Assembly (NCBI GenBank): GCA_951406725.2 | Contig: OX597818.1 | Span: 115,630,001-115,694,000, forward strand | Length of the DNA stretch: 64,000 nt | Direction: 5' to 3' | DNA from: Octopus vulgaris | Taxonomy: Eukaryota | Shown here: in pieces, positions 4,447-62,902 of the stretch | Layout: the number at the start of each line of letters is the position of its first letter | How positions within the stretch are numbered: the stretch's first letter is position 1 | Position numbers and translations under genes: made by a program | The notes under the pieces: model-generated | The model's database searches: none | Told to the model about the DNA's origin: nothing | The model's input: the letters and a program-made list of their open reading frames with translations, nothing else

Positions 4447-4650
4447 GAACCACCAATGCCAACATGATGATGATATATGAATTCACACAAGAGACTTCTA
4501 CACAGTTTTCATCTACCAAATTCACCCATGAGATATTAGTCAGCCTGGGACTATACTAGAAGATATTGGCACAAGAGGTCATACAATGGGACTGAACCTG
4601 AAACCACAGGTTTGCCAGGTGTGCTTCCTAACAACACAGCCGTACCTATG
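4055..4650 (-). mobile_element. SINE A, old copy, split by sequence inserted in its internal microsatellite
   Basis: Tail half 4055-4260 (tgtttcagtcactggactgtggccatg) and head half ~4490-4650. Confidence 0.65.
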
Positions 4651-5020
4651 AAATGTAATCTAAAAAATTCTGATGCAAATATAGAATTCTTTTATCTACC
4701 TTTACATTTGAACGGTTGTACCAAGACAACACAGGTACCTATATATGTTTGCTCACCCTGCTAGAAACAGCAGCCAAATTTTCCTTAACCCACGCCTATT
4801 ATCTTAACAACAAAAGTGCCGAATACTCTAAGTCTGAGGTACACTTATTCCTGAAATAAAGATGAGACAGTCATGGTTGGAATACTTGGGATCATATACC
4901 TGTTGGATCAGACTAGCCATGAACTAAATTACAAGAACAACAACACTCTTGTAAAGCAAGGCAATGAAATGGCAGAGTAGTTAGAATATCAGACAAAATA
5001 GTAGGCAATATTTATTTTGG

Positions 5021-5635: not shown

Positions 5636-6005
5636 TGCTTACCAACCACATGGTTCTGGGTTCAGTCCCACTGTGTAGAACCTTGGGCAAGTGTCTTCTA
5701 CTATAGCCTCAGGCCAACCAAAGCCTTGTGAGTGGATTTGGTAGATGGAAAGTGAAAGAAGCCCATTGTATATACGTATATGCATATATAAATATGTGTG
5801 TGTGTTTGTCTCCCCAACATCGCTTGACAACTGATGCTGGTGTGTTTACATCCTCATAAATTAGCAGTTCGGCAAAAGAGACCGATAGAATAAATACTAG
5901 GCTTACAAAGAATAAGTCCTGGGGTCGATTCGCTCGACTAAAGGCAGTGCTCCAGCATGGCCACAGACAAATGACTGAAACAAATAAAAGAAAAGAAAAG
6001 AAAAG
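5636..6005 (+). mobile_element. SINE A, near full length
   Basis: B-box-like GGTTCAGTCC, internal TA/TG microsatellite, tail gtgctccagcatggccacagacaaatgactgaaac. Confidence 0.9.
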
Positions 6006-7967: not shown

Positions 7968-8165
7968 TTTGTGTGTCAGTGCTTGTCCTCCCAACATCAC
8001 TTGACAACCGATGTTGGTGTGTTTACATCTCCATAACTTAGCGGTTCAGCAAAAGCGACCGATAGAATAAGTACTAGGCTTACAAAGAACAAGTCCTGGG
8101 GTCGATTTGTTCAACTAAAGGCGGTGCTCCAGCATGGCCACAATCAAATGACTGAAACGAAAGAA
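7765..8165 (+). mobile_element. SINE A, full length
   Basis: A-box-like TGGCTGCGTGG, B-box-like GGTTCAGTTCC, internal (GT)n, tail ggcggtgctccagcatggcc...gactgaaac. Confidence 0.9.
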
Positions 8166-15529: not shown

Positions 15530-15755
15530 TTTACTCTTTACTCTTTTACTTGTTTCAGTCATTTGACTGCGGCCTTGCTGGAGCACCACCTTTAGTTGAG
15601 CAAATCAACCCCAGGATTTATTCTTTGTAAGCCTAGTACTTATTCTATCGGGATCTTTTGCCGAACCGCTAAGTTATGGGGACATAAACACACCAGCATC
15701 AGTTGTCAAGCAATGTTGGGGGGACAAACACAGACACACAAACATATACACACAC

Positions 15756-24265: not shown

Positions 24266-24576
24266 TTAAATGTAACAAAAAAATTGTTGTTCATCAAATG
24301 TGATGTATTATGGATGGAATACCAAGAGCCTGAGGAACATATTAAACTTGTTTTTTACCACAAAAAAAAAAAGGATTTGCCTTAAGCATAAGTGCGTTTT
24401 ATATATACTTGCAAATACAGTAGATATACAGCAATTTAGAGGAGTGACAGAAAAAAAAAATGTTTATCAGAATTTCTTAAATAATTTAACTATTAGTGAC
24501 AGAAGTAGCTTTTGTAACAAATATTAATTAGCACTTCCAATCTAACTTGGTGTTGTAAACAACTTAAAGACATTAT

Positions 24577-24975
24577 TACTCCTTTTACTTGTTTCAGTCA
24601 TTTGACTGCGGCCATGCTGGAGCACCACCTTTAGTCGATCGAGCAAATTGACCCCAGGACTTATTCTTTGTAAGCCTAGTACTTATTCTATCGGACTCTT
24701 TTGCCGAACCGCTAAGTTATGGGGAGGTAAACACACCAGTATCGGTTGTCAAGCGATGTTGGGGGGACAAACACAGACACACAAACATATACACACACAT
24801 GCATATACATATATACGACAGGCTTCTTTCAGTTTCCGTCTACCAAATCCACTCACAAGGCTTTGGTCGGCCCGAGGCTATAGTAGAAGACACTTGCCCA
24901 AGGTGCCACACAGTGGGACTGAACCCGGAACCATGTGATTTGTAAGCACGCTACTAACCACACACCCACTCCTCT
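24577..24975 (-). mobile_element. SINE A, full length
   Basis: Near-identical to 15530-15970. Confidence 0.92.
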
Positions 24976-27736: not shown

Positions 27737-28135
27737 AGGCATGGCTGTGAGGTAAGCAGTCTGCATCTCAACCATGTGGTTCCAGGTTCAGTCCCACTGA
27801 GTGGTACCTTGGGCAAGATTTTTCTACTATAGCTTCAGGTGAGCCAACACCTTGTGAGTGGCTTTGATAGACAAACTACAAGAAGCCTGTCATACACATG
27901 CACATGTGTGTGTATGTGTGTGTTTGTACCCCACCACCACCTGACAACTGGTGTTGGTGTGTTTACATCCCTATAGCTTAGCTGTCAAGCGAAAGAGACA
28001 GACAGAATAAGTATCAGGCTCTAAAGAGAAAAAAAAAAGGTGCTGGGATCAATTCGTTCAACTAAAATTCTTCAAGGTGGTGCCCCAGCATGGCCACAGC
28101 CTAATGGCTGAAACAAGCAAAAGACTAAAAGATAA
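27737..28135 (+). mobile_element. SINE A, older subfamily
   Basis: Head plus tail ggtggtgccccagcatggccacagcctaatggctgaaac. Confidence 0.85.
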
Positions 28136-29859: not shown

Positions 29860-30056
29860 TACTCTACTCTCTTTTACTGTGGCCATGCTGGAGCACCACC
29901 TTTAGTTGACCAAATCGACCCCAGGACTTATTCTTTGTAAGCCTAGTACTTATTCTATTGGTCTCTTTTGCTGAGCAGCTAAGTTACGGGGGACATAAAC
30001 ACACCAGTATCCGTTGTCAAGAGATGTTGGGGCGACAAACACAGACACAAACATAT

Positions 30057-30822: not shown

Positions 30823-31073
30823 TATATATATATATATATGTATATATATGTGTGTGTATATGTTTGTGTGTCTGAGTTTGTTCCCCCCAACATCGCTTGA
30901 CAACCGATGCTGGTGTGTTTACGTCCCCGTAACTTAGCGGTTCGGCAAGAGAAACCGATAGAATAAGTACTAGGCTTACAAAGAATAAGTCCTGGGGTCG
31001 ATCTGCTCGACTAAAGGGGGTGCTCCAGCGTGGCCACAGTCAAATGACTGAAACAAATAAAAGAAAGAATAAA
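30612..31073 (+). mobile_element. SINE A, full length
   Basis: ggcacaggagTGGCTGTGTGG...GGTTCAGTCC, internal TA/TG microsatellite, tail ggccacagtcaaatgactgaaac. Confidence 0.92.
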
Positions 31074-31224
31074 AAGCTGTAATATGATGTGATGGATATT
31101 CGGCTGCTATTCCTAGCATGTCAAAGGGACCTAGGTACAGGGTCACAAATTTTTGAATAATGGTAGGGGAAACAGATAAACTGATACCATTGCTTGTTCC
31201 ATAATTATTTTATTGATCTCATAT

Positions 31225-31907: not shown

Positions 31908-32298
31908 ATACTCTTTACTCTTTTACTTGTTTCAGTCATTTGATTGCGGCCATGCTGGAGCACCGCCTTTAGTCAAGCAAACTGACCCCAGGACTTATTC
32001 TTTGTAAGCCTAGTACTTATTCTATCGGTCTCTTTTGCCGAACTGCTAAGTTACGGGGACGTAAACACACCAGCATCGGTTGTCAAGTGATGTTGGGGGA
32101 ACAAACACAGACACACAAACACACATATATATACAATGGGCTTCTTTCAGTTTCTGTCTACTAAATCCACTCACAAGGCTTCAACCGGCTTGAGACTACA
32201 GTAGAATACACTTGCCCAAGGTGTCACACAGTGGGACTGAACCCGGAATCGTGTGGTTGGTAAGCAAGCTACTTACCACACAGCCACTCCTGCGCCTA
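31908..32298 (-). mobile_element. SINE A, full length
   Basis: Family match including the (ctcttttact)-type tail. Confidence 0.92.
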
Positions 32299-32689: not shown

Positions 32690-33655
<966 letters not shown>

Positions 33656-35899
33656 CCTTAAATCCTTAAAAATGTTTTAGCCCGAAGGCCGCGGCCATGC
33701 TGGGGCACCACCGCTGAATGAGCTACACTAGTTTGTGAATCCACCTCTGATACGTGGCACTTGATCAACAAGGGAGTTCGATGCTGCTGCCCGCATCCGT
33801 GTCTCCTGTCGTGAGGTAGGTTCATCTGGGACTCCCAACAAGAAGAGATCCAGTTTAGTTTTAAAGAAACCCACATCCACACCATGTAAGTCTCTCAGGC
33901 ATTTAGGGAGGATGTTAAAGAGCTGTGGTCCTCTGAAACCCAAGCTGTTGCAGTATCTGGACCTGTATTTTGATGGTGATGTTGGAATCCTTGGCACCAC
34001 GCAGCGGCGCCCCGTTCTGCGGTTGGAGTAACTTTGAATGCCAAAGTTTGGGACAAGACCCTCCAGGATTTTCCAGATGTATATCACTGCATATCTCTCC
34101 CGCCTCCGCTCCAGGGAGAAGAGGTTTAATACCTTCAGTCTTTCCCAGTAGCTGACATTTTGCATTGAGACGATTTTCTTTGTGTAGCTTCTCTGAGTTG
34201 CTTCGAGTTCTGCTGTTTGTTTTATATTGTGTGGTGACCAAAGTTGGGAGCAGTAGTCCAAGCGGCTGAGGACAAATGTTTTCCATAGGACCATCAGTGT
34301 CTCCTTCTCTCTTGTTCTGAAAGTTCGGAGAATCCATCCAGCTAGCCGTCTGCATTTTATCACCAGATTAGCAATATGCATTTGGAAAGATGCATCATTG
34401 CTCATGTCAATGCCCAGGTCACGCACTGATTTTGACTCAGGGATTGCAATTCTTCCTGGGCCAGTGTATCCAGTCTTCACGTCATTTACCTTTGTGTGCC
34501 AGTAGCGCAGGGCCTGGAACTTACCTGCATTAAACTGCATGTTGTTGTCCTCAGCCCACCTGTATATTGTGTCCAGCTCATGTTGCAGATGCGCAATATT
34601 TTCAGGGTTTTGTATTGCGTGGGAGACTTTTGTGTCATCTGCATAGCTAGCAAGGGTGGTCATCGTAGCAACTGAAGGCATGTCTGAAAGGGCCACTATG
34701 AACATCAGTGGCCCCAAGACAGTGCCCTGTGGGACACCGCTTGTTATTTGCGTTTCCCTGGAGGTGGCTCCATTGCTCACAACTGCCTGTTTTCTGTCTT
34801 TTAGGAAGTTGTGCAGCCACTCTCCAAGTTTCCCGCCTATGCCGAGACCACGCAGTTTGTGACAGATCATACCATGGTCGACTTTATCAAAGGCTTTTGC
34901 AAAGTCAAGATATATTACATCCACATTTGAGCCATTTAGTAGCTGTTTCAACACCCAGTCATAGTGTTGCAGGAGCTGTGTTAGGCAGCCTCTACCTGGT
35001 CGAAATCCATGCTGGGTGTCAGACAGTAAGTCATTTTCTTCAAGGAACATGATTAGTTTCTTACGGACTATTCGTTCCATGACTTTGCTGATGTGTGAGG
35101 TCAGAGAGATAGGCCTATAATTTTTAGCATCTGCTCTGCTACCTCCCTTATGGATAGGGCATATTACCCCCTCTTTCAGTTTGACTGGGAGCTTACCACT
35201 TGCAAGAAAGCTCTGAAAAAGAAGCTGTAGCGGTTTTGCAAGGGCTCGTTTGCACGATTTGAGAAGGATCGCTGGGAATCCATCAGGTCCAGCAGCTGAG
35301 TTTGTGTCAATCTCATCAATGGCTAGTGTGATATCATCTTCTTCGATGTTGATGTACTCAATTTTTGTCTCTTTGGCCGCTGGTAAAGTGGCAAAGAATT
35401 CTTCTGGGTTGTTTACTTGCCTGTGTCCTAGAGGTGTAGTGAACACACTTTGGAACTGTTCGTTCAGTATTTCACTTATCCTCGTGGGATTTCCTGTGAG
35501 AGAGCCATCTTTTTGGAAGAGAGGTCCTATTCTCTGGTGCACTGTGGCTGTCTCTTTGGCAAACTTAAAGAAAGCTTTAGGGTTTGATTTTATATTTTCT
35601 ATTACCCAAGCTTCTTTATCTGCTCTCTCCTTTTCATGGGACTGATGTAGACTTTTCTCAGTTTCCATTAGCATTCTTTCGAGCCGAGACTTCTCACCAC
35701 TTTTGGTGTGCTTGCTCAGGCGGTTTGCAATCCTTGTCCGTCGTCTCATAAGAATCCTCCTTTCTCTAGGGATCCTGTTTTTATTCTTGTGTGTGCTGGC
35801 CCTGCACATTGGGACATATTTGTCACATATGGCTTGTATTATGGACATGAAGTGTTTGTGTTTCATGTTTATGTCCGGTGTGGAGAGACATTCAGGCCA
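33656..35899 (-). mobile_element. CR1-group non-LTR retrotransposon, 5'-truncated, inserted in (TA)n
   Basis: RT-bearing ORF, short 3' UTR with ggtggtgccccagcatggcc + cUUCGg hairpin and (TTTAAGGA)2 tail; TA repeats abut both ends. Confidence 0.95.
33728..35899 (-). CDS. LINE ORF2 portion (linker + reverse transcriptase + C-terminal domain, 723 aa; no start codon or endonuclease)
   Basis: Uninterrupted frame with [69 protein letters not shown] motifs. Confidence 0.9.
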
Positions 35900-37415
<1,516 letters not shown>

Positions 37416-37617
37416 GAAGTCTTTGGACAGATTCCTTCAAGAAATCCCGGATAAACCCCCTACACCCGGATATGTCTCTGTAAACAATAACTCTCTACTT
37501 GAGTGGGCCATAGTGCCCAAATTCTGACTTGAAAGACTTCACCAGGTGGTGCTATTAAGTTAGACATGGCCTGGGCCAATAATGGCCGAAACCTATCAAA
37601 GTATCAAAGTATCAAAG
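37416..37617 (+). mobile_element. 3' end of a second, distinct CR1-group LINE inserted in (TA)n
   Basis: [36 protein letters not shown] (37417-37527) parallels [15 protein letters not shown]...NSLVDQV of the first LINE; 3' UTR ggtggtgc...catggcc, hairpin ggcca-ataa-tggcc, gaaac, (TATCAAAG)3. Confidence 0.8.
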
Positions 37618-39415
<1,798 letters not shown>

Positions 39416-45377: not shown

Positions 45378-45427
<50 letters not shown>

Positions 45428-45548
45428 CAGGGTGTCCCAAAAAAATGTATACACATAGTGGTTCAGCAAAAGAGAAGGATAGAATAAGTACTAGGCTTAC
45501 AAAGAATAACAAATTATTTAAGGTGTGTATACATTTTTTTGGGACACC

Positions 45549-45551
<3 letters not shown>
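45428..45551. mobile_element. 124-bp Tc1/mariner-type MITE
   Basis: Perfect 28-bp TIRs cagggtgtcccaaaaaaatgtatacaca, TA on both sides. Confidence 0.9.
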
Positions 45552-45612
<61 letters not shown>

Positions 45613-46394
45613 CCCCACAACCAATGCTGGTGTGTTTATGTCCCCCGTAATCTAGCGGTTTGGCAAAAACAGAACGATAGAATAAGTACCAGGCTTACAA
45701 AGAATAAGTCCTGGGGTCGATTTGCTCGACTAAAGGCAGTGCTCCAGCATGGCCACAGTCAAGTGACCGAAACAAGTAAAAGAAAAGAAGAATATATATA
45801 TACATATACGCGCATCACATGCACCTAGATCAGTGGAAAAGACCTTTATTGAGTGAAAAGTATGACAGACACACTGTAAAGTATTGTTACGAACATAAAT
45901 CAATAAAACATGGGAAATATGCAGAGTAAAAGAAGAGGAATATCTCTCACTCTCTCTCTAATTATATATACATATATGTATAAATATATCATCCTCTTCA
46001 CTGGACTTGTTGGACAAGTCATGCAGAGTATATTGTAACACATCTTCTAGAGGTCGATGCCCTTCCGGTCACCAACCCTCATCTATCTCCAAGCAAGGTA
46101 ATATTTCCCCCCCTGTTTTTTCCATGGAAGACTGGAAACAAACAATGCTGCTTGTGAGGATAATGATACTCGTTAACAACCATCATGTGATGACAGGTCA
46201 AAGGTACACACACACACACACACATATATATAAAGAAGTCTATCATATATATACATATATATATATACACACACACACACACATATTTACACTATATTCT
46301 TTTATTTGTTTCGGTCATGTGACTGTGGCCATGCTGGAGCACTGCCTTTAGTCGAACAAATCGACCCCCAAGACTTATTCTAACCGATTATGGC

Positions 46395-48939: not shown

Positions 48940-49555
48940 GATCTTTTACTTGTGTCAGTCATTAGACTGTTGGGTATGCTAAGGTACTACTTTGAGGAAT
49001 TTTTAGTCCAATGGCCTGACACCAGTATTTATGTTTTTAAAACCTGGTACTTATTTTATCAGTATCTTTTGCCAAACTGCTAAGTTACAGGCTCATAAAC
49101 ACACCAACACCAGTTGCCAAGCAGTGATGGGGATAAACACATACACACATATATGATGGGGTTTTTTTTTTTAGTTTCTTATTTCTTTACTGCCCACAAG
49201 GGGCTACACACAGAGGGGACAAACAAACAGATTAAGTCGATTATATTGACCCCAGTGCGTAACTGGTACTCAATTTATCGACCCCGAAAGGATGAAAGGC
49301 AAAGTCGACCTTGGCGGAATTTGAACTCAAAACGTAACAGCAGACGAAATACCGCTAAGAATTTCGCCCAGCATGCTAACGATTCTGCCAGCTCACCACC
49401 TTTTTTTTTTTAGTTTCTGTCTACCAAATCCACCTTCAAGGTTTTGGTTGGCTCAAGGCTGTAGAAAAGTACTTGCCCCAAGTGCTACGCAGTGGGACTG
49501 AACCTGGAACTATGTGGTTCGGAAGCAGGCTTCTAACCACACAACAACACCTGCA
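48940..49555 (-). mobile_element. SINE A with nested SINE C (49175-49400)
   Basis: SINE C flanked by ttttttttagtttct duplication. Confidence 0.8.
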
Positions 49556-50700: not shown

Positions 50701-52163
50701 ACATACAGTGGATGACCGAGATGTCTCACTTGCTTCATCTTGTTCTCTGCACTCCACAATGCATTGCTGCAGCCACCCTTCCCATTCATTGAACCATAAA
50801 GATTTCTTCTGCCAAGTCCACTGAGTCTAGTCTTCACATGCAAAGGTGGCCAAACCATGGTGCTCTAATTAGCCCATAGCTGGGGCCTTGACTGATGCTA
50901 ATATTCAGTGGAGGTCGGGGTCAAAATAGACTTGGGAACTATTGTGGCTAAGAAGTGATCCCATATTCCTCAAATCCCTGGATCATTCATTCATTCATAC
51001 ACACAAGCTATACAGCAATACACATGTAGGGTACACTGGGTATTGTGAACAATTTTTAATTGGCCACAAATGTAAGATGACATAACATAAGTGACATGTG
51101 GCAAACTTACAATTTCTCATTTCTCTTTCAAATGTGTCATCAACATTAATATGGCAGACATCAATCTGACAGAGGAAATGAAAAGGCATGTCACACATGT
51201 AACTCTGGCTGTCACCACAGGAACTCAGAGTACCAGCTTCTTCAACATAACCAGATCTTCTGTATAAAAGATAGGGAAAGAGCTCACAATCTCTGGCAGG
51301 GGATGTTTCATTCTTGGCCAAGAGAAAAGAACATTATGAACAAATAAGACCTTGTCAGGATGGTCAGTCATTCAACAAGTCCAGGATATCACAATGGCAA
51401 TGCCAACAGGTTGTTGAGGTGCACAACCAAGCTGCCCAAGGCGCCAGGGCCCACTATCAGACATGTGGTGCTAAAGGACATCAGGTTCAAAAGCTAAATG
51501 ATGAGAAGAGGACAGCTGATGTACAGCAAGATTAAGGAGAACCCTGTGACCCTGTGGCACTCCAACAGTATGTCACTCCTCCCCCAACTCCCTTTTGAAT
51601 CCCTTCATTTCTGAATCACTGTAGGAGACCAGTGTGATACAGTTCCAAAGACTTGTTGGGGTGGCTGTCATAGATAGGGCGAATAACAAGGTAACTTCAT
51701 TGACACTGGTGCCACAATGAAATGCACCCAGAATGCTCCACAGAGTGGTTGGCAAACAAATGGAAACAGTATAGAATTGAAAGCACTCTTTAGTCTTGTT
51801 GGGGACATGAGCAGCTCTCTGTAAAGTGATTGTGGCTATAAAGTGAACCAAAATGGGGAAACCAAGTAAAAAGGTTTAAAACACATGAAATATTAGCAAT
51901 CTGTATACTTAAAGCATGTATATACTGAAAGCCTTACTAAACTGTGGTATTCATTTTGAGATATCCCTTCAAGACATATAGTGTTGAAACACAGAAAAAT
52001 AGCAGCTGGAGAAGGCCTTAATGCAACATGAAATAAATAAATAAATATATATATATATATATACCATCATCAGTTCCATGTTGGCATGGGTTGGATGGTT
52101 TGGCAGGAGCTGGCCAGACTCCATGTCTGCTTTGGCATGGTTTTCTACAGCTGGATGCCCTTC

Positions 52164-52577
52164 ATTATTTCTTTATTACCCACAAAGGGATAAACATAGA
52201 GAGGACACACAAGGATGACAAAGGGATTAAGTTGATTATCTCGACCCCAGTATGCAACAGGTACTTAATTTATTGACCCCGAACGGATGAAAGGCAAAGT
52301 CAACCTTGGCGGAATTTGAACTCAGAACATAACAGCAGACGAAATATCTATTTCTTTACTACTCACAAGGGGTTAAACACAGAGGGAACAAACAAGGAGA
52401 GACAAAGAGATTAAGTCGATTACATTGACCCCAGTGCATAACTGGTACTTAATTTATCGACCCCGAAAGGATGAAAGGCAAAGTCGACCTCGGCGGAATT
52501 TGAACTCAGAACATAACAGTAGAAGAAATACTGTTAAGCATTTCGCCCGGCGTACTAACATTTCGGCCAGCTCGCTA
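52164..52577 (-). mobile_element. SINE C dimer inserted in a SINE B-related copy
   Basis: 13-bp TSD ctggatgcccttc (52151-52163; 52578-52590); internal junction gaaata-tc-tatttc at 52341-52354. Confidence 0.9.
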
Positions 52578-52774
52578 CTGGATGCCCTTCCTAACACCAA
52601 CCACTTTGCAGAGCGTACTGGGTGCTTGCAACACAGCACCAGCTTGGGTGCGTTTACATACCACTGGTACAGGTACTTTTTACATGGTACCAGCACCCAT
52701 GAGCCTCGTGGTTAGGAATGCTCAGCTAGAGAGGGATGTAAGGGACAAACCTGAATACAAGGACAACCACGCTT

Positions 52775-52999: not shown

Positions 53000-53415
53000 C
53001 TAGGCAAGGCTGTGTGGTAAGAGGCTTGCTTCCCAACCACATGGTTCCAGGTTCAGTCCCACTACAGAGCACCTTGGGCAAATGTCTTCCACTATAGCTT
53101 TGGGCCCACTAAACCTTGTGTGTGGATTTAGTAGAAGGAAACTAAATGAAGCACATCACGTATGTATGCATGTGTCTATCTATCTATCTATCTATGTGTG
53201 TGAGTTTTTGCATGTGTTCATCCCCCACTACTGCTTGACAACTGGTGTTGGTGTGTTTATGTCCCTGTAACTTAGCACTTTGGCAAAAGAGATCAATGAA
53301 ATAAGTAAGAAGCTTTAAAACAAAATAAGGACTGCAGTTGAATCATTCAAATACAAATTCTTCAATGTGGTGCCCCAGCATGGCCGCAGCCTAATAACTG
53401 AAACAAGTAAAAGAT
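53000..53415 (+). mobile_element. SINE A, older subfamily
   Basis: Head plus tail tgtggtgccccagcatggccgcagcctaataactgaaacaagtaaaaga. Confidence 0.85.
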
Positions 53416-53583
53416 AATACATAAACACACAAACATGTGTGTGTGTGTGATATTTCCCACATGAACTACGATGAAAAAAAATACGAGAAAGATACGGTAT
53501 GTATTTTTTTGGGTGCAGGGATTCCTTGAGACATGCAATTTATTTTAAGGGTTACACAAGGGTGAAACGATTGAGAAACCCTA

Positions 53584-60540: not shown

Positions 60541-61615
60541 ATTAGAAATGCACCACCACACAACCGCGCCCACTCTACAAGACACAATAATAATAATAAT
60601 AATAATAACAATGGCACAGAAAAGCTTTTGATAATAGCAGCAATGACATCGATAAAGAAGACGGCTAAAACCGTCGATTGTGTTTATTTGTTTAGCTATA
60701 GAGACGAATGTTTTTATGTAATATATACATATTCCACATAGTATCCAGTTGAGCGCCTGTAGAGGAATCTAGCGTACATCCATTCGAACAGGTTTGGATT
60801 GAAATACTTAATTAAAAGGCCTGATGGCAAATAAGCAGGTTCGAGATTTGCCAGTATCAAGGTAGGTAACTCTGGATGCTATAGTATTACTCTCAAGTTT
60901 GTCGCTTACTATTTAAATATTTAAATATTTGTGGGAGCAATCGGTTTCATTTGCTTCACTTTCGTTTCATTTTTTATTTAGATTTGCTTTTACGTTTTTA
61001 TATCACATGCTAACTACAGAAAGCGGACCAATGAAAGGAAATGACTATAGACATTTTTGCGTTTATAAAAATGAGATAGTGAAAGTAAGGAAGTCAAATG
61101 ACTAGGTTATTAGCGAAAGATTTTTTGATAGTTAATAATGTACATTATTGACTACAGTACAAAATAATGATTGTGTAGTATTAATTATGTCCATTATTAG
61201 ATACCAACAACATTAGAAGCAATAACAATCTTAGAGAATAATAACAGAGTAAATGTAAACATCAAATATAGTTGTATAAACAACAGTTTTAATTGCTACA
61301 CGGACTATTACAAGATGTAATATCTATAATCACAACACTTGATTTCACATACCGAGAAATCATGAATTGCTTTCAAAATTAAATGGGAAAGATATAATAT
61401 ACGTAGCAGGCCACTAATGAAATAATTTATGTTCAGTGTTACTCTTTGTAATTATTTTACTCAATGGTTGATGCTCTTGAGAACAGCATCAACTCGTACT
61501 CCAATACTTTTAGTTTCCTTGCCACTCTGATCGTGGCTATCACTGATCACAAATAAAGCAATTGATTCTAGCTATTACTGTAGTGTGCGTGTGTATACAT
61601 ACACATATATATAAA

Positions 61616-62819
61616 CAGGGTGTGTAAGATATTTGAGGACAGATTTATGTTTATAAAAAAAAAACATATAATAACAGATAATAACTTTATTTATTAAAAA
61701 ATGCTATGAGGATAGAAATTAACTTTTTCTATAATGCTATTCAATAAAGCCACCTTCAGCTTACAACCGCTTCTATACATGGTCTAAATCATGTACATGC
61801 TTGAATTAGGTGGTCCTGGTCCATTTTGAACATTACTCTGACTATGGCAGCTTTCAAAGAATCTTTGGTGTTATGGGCGTGTTCATTGACCTTTCTCTCA
61901 ACAACGCTCCACATGTAACAGTCCAATGGATTGAGATCTGGGGAATTAGGAGGCCAAATGTTTTGGGTTATGTGATCATGAAAATTTTCAGCCATCCATT
62001 CCTGTGTTACCAAAGCCATGTGTGATAGTGTAGAGTCTTACTGAAACACCCATGGCCTTCCATTGCATATACTGTCTATTCAGAGATTAACAATTATTTT
62101 CAGGACCTCAATGTGAGCGGTAGAATTAACTCTAAGGCCTTGTGGAAAGAAGTAAGGAGGTATCACATGTCCTTCATTGCTGACAACCCCTATCACCATG
62201 ACAGTTGCAGGAAATTTTGTATGCATAACACTTGGAACTTCAGAAGGATCTGCACATAACCATCTTTCATTTCTTCGGTTAACTTTTTGATCTTCGTCGA
62301 AGTTTTTCTCGTTTGATAAAAAACAAATCAAATCTTCTGCTGCGTTTTCAGTTTGTTTAAGAGCCTTTTAGATCTGATGTAGTGATTTTCTTTTGTTTTT
62401 TCTTACAAATTGACCTTTCCTTATCATATAAGACTTATATCTGACTATTCCTTCTGACACATGGAGATTTTTTGCAATTGACCTCATAGACTTTTTGAGG
62501 TTGTAATCAATGATTTGTTGAACTTGTTGGATAAATTCAGGTTTTCTGATGATTTCAGAGCGTCTAGAATACTTTTCATCCTTTCATACTTGTGATATGT
62601 TTCCATCTTCAGTCACTAGCTCCTTACAAACTTTGTAGATGAAAGATCTGGCAACTTTTAAAACTCAAGATATTTCTAAATCACAATACTCAGCCTTTCT
62701 AACAGCAATAATAGCATGCCGCTTCACTTCTTGAGTAAGCTGAGGGTCTACCATTATTATTTTCTGAAATAATGCAATGACCCCAAAAAGCTATGTCCTC
62801 AAATACCTTATGCACCCTG
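61616..62819 (-). mobile_element. Full-length decayed Tc1/mariner-superfamily transposon, DD37D (maT) type
   Basis: 26-bp imperfect TIRs cagggtgtgtaagatatttgaggaca / tgtcctcaaataccttatgcaccctg; TA at right end; 1204 bp. Confidence 0.9.
61737..62754 (-). pseudogene. DD37D transposase pseudogene
   Basis: LSNEKNF (FSDEK decayed), VMVIGVVS, FQ*DS, WPPNSPDLNPLD with 37 residues between second and third Asp; ends AEGGFIE*; stops and frameshifts. Confidence 0.85.
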
Positions 62820-62902
62820 TATATATATATAGAGAGAGAGAATCGGTCAGTTGTTCACAAGTGCACAACGAAAAGCATACTCTAAAATATTTTGAACAGT
62901 GT

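What the first reader, a model, noticed from the sequence alone, without database searches (positions are those of the whole stretch)
33656..33715. LINE-SINE partnership: shared 3' motif, covarying hairpin and 8-mer tail
Seen: LINE 1 ends GGTGGTGCCCCAGCATGGCC-gc-[ggcc TTCG ggct]-AAAAC...(TTTAAGGA)2. SINE A ends GGCGGTGCTCCAGCATGGCC-g-[cagtc AAAT gactg]-AAAC-(AGTAAAAG)n; the older SINE A at 28078-28115 has GGTGGTGCCCCAGCATGGCC-a-[cagcc TAAT ggctg]-AAAC. LINE 2 ends GGTGGTGC...CATGGCC-tg-[ggcca ATAA tggcc]-GAAAC-(TATCAAAG)3. Stem sequences differ but pairing is kept, and LINE 1 has a cUUCGg tetraloop. Known: CR1/L2-type LINEs recognise a 3' stem-loop plus short tandem repeat, and partner SINEs carry this tail. 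Inference: this LINE lineage mobilises the dominant SINE here, and loop/8-mer identity may act as a family-specific address.
Basis: partly seen in the sequence, partly recalled or inferred. Interest (0 to 1): 0.75.

Follow-up and report, generated by a model that had tools for sequence, protein, structure and literature searches.

The report
Two-hairpin tail links SINE and LINE
The abundant short repeat (SINE) of this probably-octopus genome ends in the same tail, predicted to fold into two hairpins, as a group of related jumping genes (LINEs) that sit in (TA)n repeats, and it likely borrows its copying enzyme from a branch of that group not present in this window: a new example of a well-known hitch-hiking arrangement.

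Summary
LINE 1 and LINE 2 belong to a radiation of about a dozen related APE-RT (CR1-like) LINE families. The 'conserved motif' is itself a predicted hairpin (SL1, with a purine mismatch 4 bp below the loop) directly before the covarying hairpin (SL2). Covariation holds on the RT tree. The SINE tail matches LINE 1 at 36 of 54 positions but a LINE outside the window (LINE 4) at 48 of 54, including the identical 8-nt terminal repeat; its older sister LINE 8 matches 46. SINE subfamilies changed terminal repeat in step with that lineage. No LINE with the SINE's exact SL2 loop was found, so the loop is a doubtful address; the repeat fits better. The 'older SINE' hairpin at 28078 is a private variant. 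Young LINE copies abut (TA)n, and 9 of 50 LINE 2 copies are cut at the base of SL1. The scan's earlier notes on this genome concern Tx1/SINE pairs; none matched this sequence. New member of a known kind; mobilisation untested.

The parts
33656..35899 (-). LINE 1: 5'-truncated (2.24 kb) copy of a very young APE-RT LINE family; open RT frame 35896-33728, then a ~70-nt 3' tail
   Evidence: Open frame of 722 codons, Pfam RVT_1 E 5.5e-30; 40 of 40 scored genomic hits ~100% identical; 1252 exact tail matches; longer copies carry endonuclease + RT (L182)
33691..33714 (-). LINE 1 SL1: predicted hairpin formed by the 'conserved motif'; G.G mismatch 4 bp below a 4-nt loop
   Evidence: MFE and centroid structure; pair counts
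33679..33690 (-). LINE 1 SL2: 4-bp predicted hairpin with UUCG loop
   Evidence: the older subfamily LINE 1b has the full 5-bp stem
33655..33670 (-). LINE 1 terminal 8-nt repeat (2.1 copies), running into (TA)n
   Evidence: TRF; same in 30 of 30 loci read
32703..33655 (.). (TA)n array at the 3' junction of LINE 1 (inferred target)
   Evidence: TRF period 2, 480 copies
35899..39415 (.). (TA)n array holding the 5' junction of LINE 1 and the whole LINE 2 fragment
   Evidence: TRF period 2, 1758 copies
37415..37617 (+). LINE 2: ~200-nt 3' fragment of a second young family; SL1 37543-37573 (enlarged loop, longer stem), SL2 37574-37587, three 8-nt units 37594-37617
   Evidence: 2082 exact tail matches; longer copies encode RT 33-44% identical to LINE 1; fold; 5' end read by eye
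28076..28133 (+). Tail of an old SINE A copy: SL1 28076-28095, SL2 28097-28110 with a private double change at pair 4
31909..32297 (-). Full-length young SINE A copy (~390 nt; 5' limit approximate); SL1 31948-31967, SL2 31933-31946, terminal repeat 31909-31928
5943..5990 (+). SINE A tail
8120..8165 (+). SINE A tail
15530..15590 (-). SINE A tail
24575..24629 (-). SINE A tail
29860..29900 (-). SINE A tail lacking most of SL2
31016..31074 (+). SINE A tail
45735..45790 (+). SINE A tail
46295..46346 (-). SINE A tail
53366..53420 (+). Tail of an old SINE A copy

Best explanation
SINE A and about a dozen related APE-RT LINE families of this genome share a ~55-nt 3' tail predicted to fold into two stacked hairpins followed by a short terminal repeat, and SINE A is likely copied in trans by the LINE 4/LINE 8 branch of that group rather than by the LINE 1 or LINE 2 of this window. 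Inferred mechanism, by analogy with eel UnaL2 and zebrafish ZfL2: ORF2 binds the tail, with the near-invariant SL1 (purine mismatch 4 bp below the loop) as the group-wide handle; the endonuclease nicks TA-rich DNA; the terminal repeat anneals to the nick and primes reverse transcription. Shown: sequence sharing, pair conservation, repeat identity, (TA)n junctions, truncation hotspot, relative ages. Inferred: folding in vivo, protein binding, trans-mobilisation, which element gives specificity. The main SINE burst (2-4% non-CpG divergence) falls between LINE 8 (~80% between copies) and LINE 4 (~99% between copies), so its driver was probably a member of this branch that I did not sample.
For: Young SINE tail versus family-majority LINE tails, identical of 54: LINE 4 48, LINE 8 46, LINE 3b 43, LINE 1c 42, LINE 6 41, LINE 1b 38, LINE 1 36; last 20 nt 20 of 20 with LINE 4, 18 with LINE 8. 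All 30 LINE 4 loci read end in the SINE's repeat (A-run length varies in a few) and most lie behind an RT ~70% identical to LINE 1. LINE 4 and LINE 8 group on the ORF2 tree (support 0.96). SINE repeat type changes with subfamily: 7-nt unit in 14 of 33 old copies, LINE 8-type unit in 14 of 34 middle copies, LINE 4-type unit in 41 of 61 youngest copies (rest other or tied); 41:7 against 8:14, Fisher p 1.2e-4. Short-form SINEs share LINE 8's SL1 loop. Two-hairpin MFE in 7 of 8 tails folded; 92% of cells paired, covariation 0.252 against 0.150, 0 of 500 shuffles; on the RT tree the SL2 closing pair changes on both sides 3 times with 12 of 12 paired, reached by 0 of 439 control column pairs. 13 of 50 LINE 2 copies end within 20 nt of the anchor, 9 of them at the 5' base of SL1. 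Contig depth in four public runs rises several- to ~500-fold over the LINE 4 tail at 88% likeness, with SINE-like loose ends.
Against: No LINE with the SINE's exact SL2 was found among 126, 190 and 32 pattern hits (44, 30 and 30 loci read). The SINE's SL2 stem equals that of another family, LINE 6, not LINE 4. SINE and LINE 4 loops differ (AAAU against GGAU), whereas in zebrafish L2 the loop is the strict determinant (PMC4176376, passages). Ages do not overlap well: LINE 4 copies were selected by an exact 33-mer and are ~99% alike, younger than most SINE copies. SINE copies abut (TA)4 in only 23 of 95 cases against 23 of 30 for LINE 4 (11 of 29 for LINE 8; background 8%). A similar repeat also ends some copies of old family LINE 5, so the repeat may be ancestral rather than diagnostic. 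Most SL1 pairs never vary, so SL1 rests on folding, one stepwise pair, the basal pair and the truncation hotspot.
Confidence: 0.7

Rival explanations
1. Promiscuous use: SL1 and the SL2 stem are a group-wide signal, and any active family (LINE 1, 2, 3, 4, 6) can copy SINE A; the SINE merely inherited its repeat once from an ancestor of the LINE 4/5/8 type.
For: SL1 is almost invariant across families; the SINE's SL2 stem equals LINE 6's; no exact-loop partner found; one chimera joins LINE 1b upstream sequence to a SINE tail (L178).
Against: The SINE repeat changed twice and each later state matches the LINE 8 then LINE 4 state; none of 134 SINE tails read shows the LINE 1, 2 or 3 repeat (read by eye). 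LINE 1, 2 and 4 are very young, yet SINE copies as young were not seen in the sample (minimum 0.6-1.2% non-CpG).
Confidence: 0.17
2. The true partner is an unsampled or extinct family carrying the SINE's exact SL2 loop, and the loop is the family address as in zebrafish L2; LINE 4 and LINE 8 are only its relatives.
For: Age gap between LINE 8 and LINE 4 where the SINE burst lies; each LINE family has its own loop; loop strictness in ZfL2 (PMC4176376, passages). My patterns demanded a fixed upstream word that LINE 8 itself lacks, so such a family could be missed.
Against: One search had no upstream demand and gave only LINE 4 point variants (6 of 30 read) and SINE copies (24 of 30), but it tested only the C-G form of pair 4. 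No such LINE in 980 kb of random sequence, which holds few LINE ends.
Confidence: 0.1
3. LINE 1 itself (the element in the finding) drives SINE A.
For: Shares SL1; young, intact ORF2 copies exist.
Against: Lowest tail match of seven families tested, 36 of 54, different loop, stem and repeat; far younger than the SINE burst.
Confidence: 0.03

Closest known systems
Eel UnaL2 with UnaSINE1/2 and zebrafish ZfL2-1/ZfL2-2 (PMC1636434: passages and section 16; PMC4176376: abstract and passages)
   Same: ~60-nt shared 3' tail, stem-loop plus short terminal repeat, no poly(A); a flexible mismatch inside the stem; family-specific loops
   Different: L2 clade, one interrupted hairpin; loop is the strict determinant there. 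Here two stacked hairpins, the SINE loop differs from the best partner's, and nothing is assayed
Bivalve CR1 / CR1-Zenon LINEs with V-, CORE-, Meta- and Deu-SINEs (PMC4824008 section 11; PMC4758252 and PMC11481361 passages)
   Same: Mollusc SINE tails of 35-61 nt at 72-95% identity to CR1-type LINE ends, with predicted stem-loops and compensatory changes; several SINE families per tail
   Different: Bivalves, not cephalopods; (TA)n junctions, a two-hairpin tail and repeat turnover were not in the passages I read; CR1-Zenon is described as ORF1-less with poly(A) (PMC13343379 passage), unlike these LINEs
Microsatellite-targeting APE LINEs (Waldo, Mino, Kibi, Koshi; PMC3812793 passage names Waldo, the others recalled)
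   Same: APE-type LINE copies found almost only inside one microsatellite
   Different: Those are R1/Tx1 clades (recalled); these are CR1-like and use (TA)n
Octopus SINEs OK, OR1, OR2 (Ohshima and Okada 1994; seen only as citations in PMC4824008, PMC4758252, PMC3531059); tRNA-Core and tRNA-Deu SINEs of octopus (PMC8967140 passages)
   Same: SINE A is probably one of these dominant octopus SINEs (inference from abundance and recalled CORE-like and Deu/Nin-like segments)
   Different: Identity not tested; no partner LINE named in what I could read

Membership tests
Stringent SINE/LINE pair | Shared 3'-terminal sequence of ~40-60 nt at the very end of both elements | tested here: met
   48 of 54 with LINE 4, 46 with LINE 8
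Stringent SINE/LINE pair | Same terminal tandem repeat | tested here: met
   Met for LINE 4 (30 of 30 loci; last 20 nt identical)
Stringent SINE/LINE pair with LINE 1 or LINE 2 as partner | Same terminal tandem repeat | tested here: not met
   Different units
Stringent SINE/LINE pair | Conserved stem-loop with compensatory changes | tested here: met
   (computational only)
Stringent SINE/LINE pair | Loop shared between SINE and partner | tested here: not met
   SL2 loop differs from LINE 4 (2 of 4 positions alike) and from all families found; SL1 loop equals LINE 8's
Stringent SINE/LINE pair | Overlapping periods of activity | tested here: inconclusive
   SINE burst lies between LINE 8 and LINE 4; LINE samples biased by query
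Stringent SINE/LINE pair | Trans-mobilisation by the LINE protein | not testable with these tools
   needs a cell assay
CR1 group of LINEs | ORF2 with AP endonuclease then RT | tested here: met
   Pfam Exo_endo_phos(_2) and RVT_1 in LINE 1, 2, 4; shared with many clades
CR1 group of LINEs | RT groups with reference CR1 elements | tested here: inconclusive
   No named reference elements held. Nearest named hits: Argonauta hians 63%, stork RT proteins 33-36%; that bird APE-RTs are mostly CR1, and the RT motif match, are recalled
CR1 group of LINEs | Short 3' UTR ending in a short tandem repeat, no poly(A) | tested here: met
CR1 group of LINEs | ORF1 of a described type | tested here: inconclusive
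   Upstream frame interrupted in the two copies read; weak zf-CCCH hit E 0.005, under cut-off; 'CCCH' has 0 occurrences in PMC4120745
tRNA-derived CORE/Deu SINE (OR1/OR2 type) | tRNA-related head with Pol III boxes | tested here: inconclusive
   Rfam gave no tRNA match on one head; box-like segments seen by eye only; the planned tally was not completed
tRNA-derived CORE/Deu SINE (OR1/OR2 type) | Central conserved domain and identity to a published family | not tested
   No reference sequence available; source papers not held
Microsatellite-targeting LINE | Copies lie in one microsatellite far above background | tested here: met
   (TA)4 within 45 nt of the 3' end: LINE 1 29 of 29, LINE 2 27 of 30, LINE 4 23 of 30, LINE 6 16 of 25, LINE 8 11 of 29; background 1599 of 20000
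Microsatellite-targeting LINE | Endonuclease cleaves that repeat; array predates insertion | not testable with these tools
   needs empty-site comparison or an in vitro nicking assay

The most novel reading that the evidence does not exclude
A (TA)n-homing CR1-like radiation uses a bipartite tail in which a near-invariant hairpin is the shared handle and the terminal repeat, not the hairpin loop, is the family address; the dominant octopus SINE kept its hairpins and updated its terminal repeat twice to follow successive members of one LINE branch, and RT often stops at the base of SL1, leaving ~55-nt tail-only insertions.
Probability: 0.3. Interest if true: 0.65.

Novelty: new member of a known kind. 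Interest (0 to 1): 0.42.

Why it matters
It names the likely engine of a SINE with roughly 300,000 copies (extrapolated from 119 tails in 1.0 Mb outside the window), a main component of octopus genomes. Several young families with intact ORF2 (LINE 1, LINE 4 read here) share SL1 but differ in SL2 loop and repeat, which gives a natural swap series for testing how a CR1-type protein picks its RNA; the papers I read give assay data for L2, R1 and R2 but none for invertebrate CR1 tails. The (TA)n link may bear on the very long TA arrays of this genome. The principle itself is textbook.

Tried and rejected
LINE 1 and LINE 2 as partner: rejected on tail identity and repeat. The 28078 stem as an older subfamily: rejected; 32 exact genome-wide matches to that form, and the 24 SINE copies among 30 read come from mixed subfamilies. 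LINE with the SINE's exact SL2: not found. The decayed LINE in L058 as partner of old SINEs: its search returned a mix of families, nothing decisive. Rfam on a SINE head: no tRNA hit. ESM Atlas gave no answer. Expression: no RNA holder listed for LINE 4, so nothing is concluded. A read-depth control on the LINE 1 tail gave no result. Truncation hotspot in other families: only 20 unselected tails held; 5 true short ends among 16 LINE 3/3b/4 tails after removing 2 that were another subfamily, 0 of 2 for LINE 1: too few. Target-site duplications and the SINE 5' junction were looked at by eye only and remain open. Earlier scan notes searched by sequence: nothing. Papers not held: Albertin 2015, a PMC id recalled for Gilbert and Labuda 1999.

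Full report
Setting. The window is G000:C5:115630001-115694000 of a 2.8-Gb genome. The nearest named relative of the LINE protein is from Argonauta hians, 63% over the RT region, so the host is probably an octopod; this is inference.

Observation. All tails are as described. The shared motif has 12 matches in the window against 0.03 expected. LINE 1 (33656-35899, minus) keeps an open RT frame and belongs to a very young family: 40 of 40 scored hits are ~100% identical, 1252 exact tail matches. LINE 2 in the window is a ~200-nt 3' fragment; its tail has 2082 exact matches and longer copies encode an RT 33-44% identical to LINE 1. Longer copies of LINE 1, 2 and 4 carry AP endonuclease and RT.

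A radiation, not one LINE. Loci from searches and 980 kb of evenly spaced genome stretches yielded further families with the same tail plan, which I label LINE 1b, 1c, 3, 3b, 3c, 4, 5, 6, 7, 8. A tree of the last ~400 nt of ORF2 (191 anchored ends, 142 distinct, the four young families capped at 4 copies each, copies with N or (TA)8 upstream left out) groups LINE 4 with LINE 8 (0.96), and LINE 1c, 1b and 1 in series. Each family has its own SL2 loop and terminal repeat.

Structure. This is the MFE in 7 of 8 tails folded, z from -1.6 to -3.1; the eighth, a decayed LINE 8 copy, folds otherwise. LINE 2 keeps SL1 with a larger loop and longer stem. RNAalifold recovers both stems. On 16 representative tails 92% of cells pair, covariation 0.252 against 0.150, 0 of 500 shuffles; the two measures that count pairs or types are not significant (36 and 273 of 500). 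With the tree (12 families; LINE 2, one LINE 8 row and both SINEs left out) the SL2 closing pair shows 3 coincident changes with 12 of 12 paired, matched by 0 of 439 control column pairs; the basal SL1 pair shows 2 with 9 of 12 paired, matched by 2 controls; SL2 pair 4 shows 1. Most SL1 pairs are invariant and so uninformative. Published RT-binding hairpins carry a bulge or mismatch 4-6 bp from the loop (PMC5135761, passages) and a purine mismatch hinge in L2 SINEs (PMC1636434, section 16); SL1 has that feature, which is why I infer it is the main handle. Independent hint: of 50 LINE 2 copies chosen by a pattern inside SL1's 3' half, 13 end within 20 nt upstream, 9 of them 1-3 nt before the SL1 stem, 4 end between 26 and 200 nt (two of these are internal indels rather than ends), 33 run further.

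Partner. SINE A gave 134 tails in 1.064 Mb, 15 in the window. The young SINE tail matches family-majority tails at 48 of 54 (LINE 4), 46 (LINE 8), 43 (3b), 42 (1c), 41 (6), 38 (1b), 36 (1); the last 20 nt are identical to LINE 4. LINE 4 has 529 exact tail matches, ends in the SINE's 8-nt unit in 30 of 30 loci and has an intact 1090-codon frame in L184. LINE 8 is old (best hits 76-84%), has the SL1 loop of short-form SINEs, and its second repeat unit differs by one base. SINE subfamilies follow this: old long form mostly a 7-nt unit (14 of 33), middle form mostly the LINE 8 unit (14 of 34), youngest forms the LINE 4 unit (41 of 61); undecided copies are 11, 12 and 11; 6 copies unclassified; 41:7 against 8:14, p 1.2e-4. 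Subfamily calls were made by simple motif rules. In four public runs, contigs at 88% likeness pile up on the LINE 4 tail with SINE-like loose ends, and the LINE 4 body is present with 0-4 differences per piece; this shows sequence likeness, not expression.

Against a neat pairing. The SINE's SL2 stem equals LINE 6's, and its loop (AAAU, older UAAU) matches no LINE found. Non-CpG divergence of the youngest SINE groups is 2.4-4.2% (9, 15 and 19 copies), the middle group 8.9% (10), the old group 21% (40), while LINE 4 copies are ~99% alike (selected by an exact 33-mer). So LINE 8 fits the middle group in age and LINE 4 postdates most of the youngest; a member of the branch between them is inferred, not seen. 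The 28078 stem is 1 of 119 scorable tails; 32 exact matches genome-wide, of 30 read 6 are LINE 4 variants and 24 SINE copies of mixed subfamilies.

Target. (TA)4 lies within 45 nt of the 3' end in 29 of 29 LINE 1, 27 of 30 LINE 2, 23 of 30 LINE 4, 16 of 25 LINE 6, 11 of 29 LINE 8 and 23 of 95 short-form SINE copies, against 8% of random windows. In the window both LINEs are embedded in arrays of about 1 and 3.5 kb. The repeats run into the array through a shared TA step (read by eye), which fits priming by microhomology. Whether arrays predate insertion is untested.

Known and new. Shared tails, stem-loops and terminal repeats define stringent SINE/LINE pairs (PMC3747384, PMC4176376, PMC1636434, passages), including CR1 pairs in bivalves (PMC4824008 section 11; PMC4758252, PMC11481361 passages). 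Octopus SINE content is dominated by tRNA-Core and tRNA-Deu types (PMC8967140, passages). Nine searches listed no paper naming a LINE partner for an octopus SINE, and 'octopus' does not occur in PMC3747384, which tabulates such pairs. Repbase, Dfam, SINEBase tables, Ohshima and Okada 1994 and Albertin 2015 were not seen, no supplements were opened, and any of them may already hold this pair. CR1 membership rests on domain order, tail type, weak named hits and recalled motifs. Earlier scan notes on this genome deal with Tx1/SINE systems and an ORF1-only element sharing a SINE tail; I did not test them.

Verdict. Real and well supported as a shared, covarying tail; partner best assigned to the LINE 4/8 branch; new member of a known kind with three features worth a specialist's look (two hairpins, repeat turnover, (TA)n homing with SL1-base truncation). 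Interest 0.42.

Noticed in passing
L122:8930-9200 (+) and L029 (minus strand, ~1250-1330): A second short element with a different head and body ends in the same two-hairpin SINE tail but then a poly(A) run instead of the 8-nt repeat: tail shared between SINE families.
   Followed up: partly
L046, L052, L055, L066: 4 of 50 LINE 2 copies have the same 5' junction in which a few added bases are the reverse complement of the SL1 5' arm, suggesting cDNA fold-back at the hairpin base.
   Followed up: partly
L182:950-8000; L102, L103, L106, L017, L018: Different families (LINE 1, 2, 3, 4) stack inside the same (TA)n array, as LINE 1 and LINE 2 do in the window.
   Followed up: partly
L184:4545-4697 (+); L182:~4590-4680 (+): Upstream of ORF2, LINE 4 and LINE 1 carry a C-x7-C-x8-C-x3-H motif; weak zf-CCCH hit under Pfam's cut-off. 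LINE 1's 5' part is a long CT-rich tract.
   Followed up: partly
G000 C1 70-74 Mb and C2 55-60 Mb: LINE 4 copies cluster in these intervals among the first 100 places listed.
   Followed up: no
L184, L185, L095, L096, L108: Several LINE 4 loci hold a second, inverted piece of the same family next to the main copy.
   Followed up: no
L178 and L161: Chimeras: LINE 1b upstream sequence joined to a SINE tail (L178), and a SINE body joined through a LINE 7-like linker to the tail (L161); possible template switches.
   Followed up: no
window 49200-49400 and 52160-52580: Another abundant SINE-like repeat, nested in itself; resembles the Deu/Nin type (recalled) and shares a block with the SINE A body.
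   Followed up: no
window 45427-45555 and ~61615-62825: TA-flanked elements with terminal inverted repeats (a ~130-nt one inside a SINE A copy, and a ~1.2-kb one), Tc1/mariner-like by eye.
   Followed up: no
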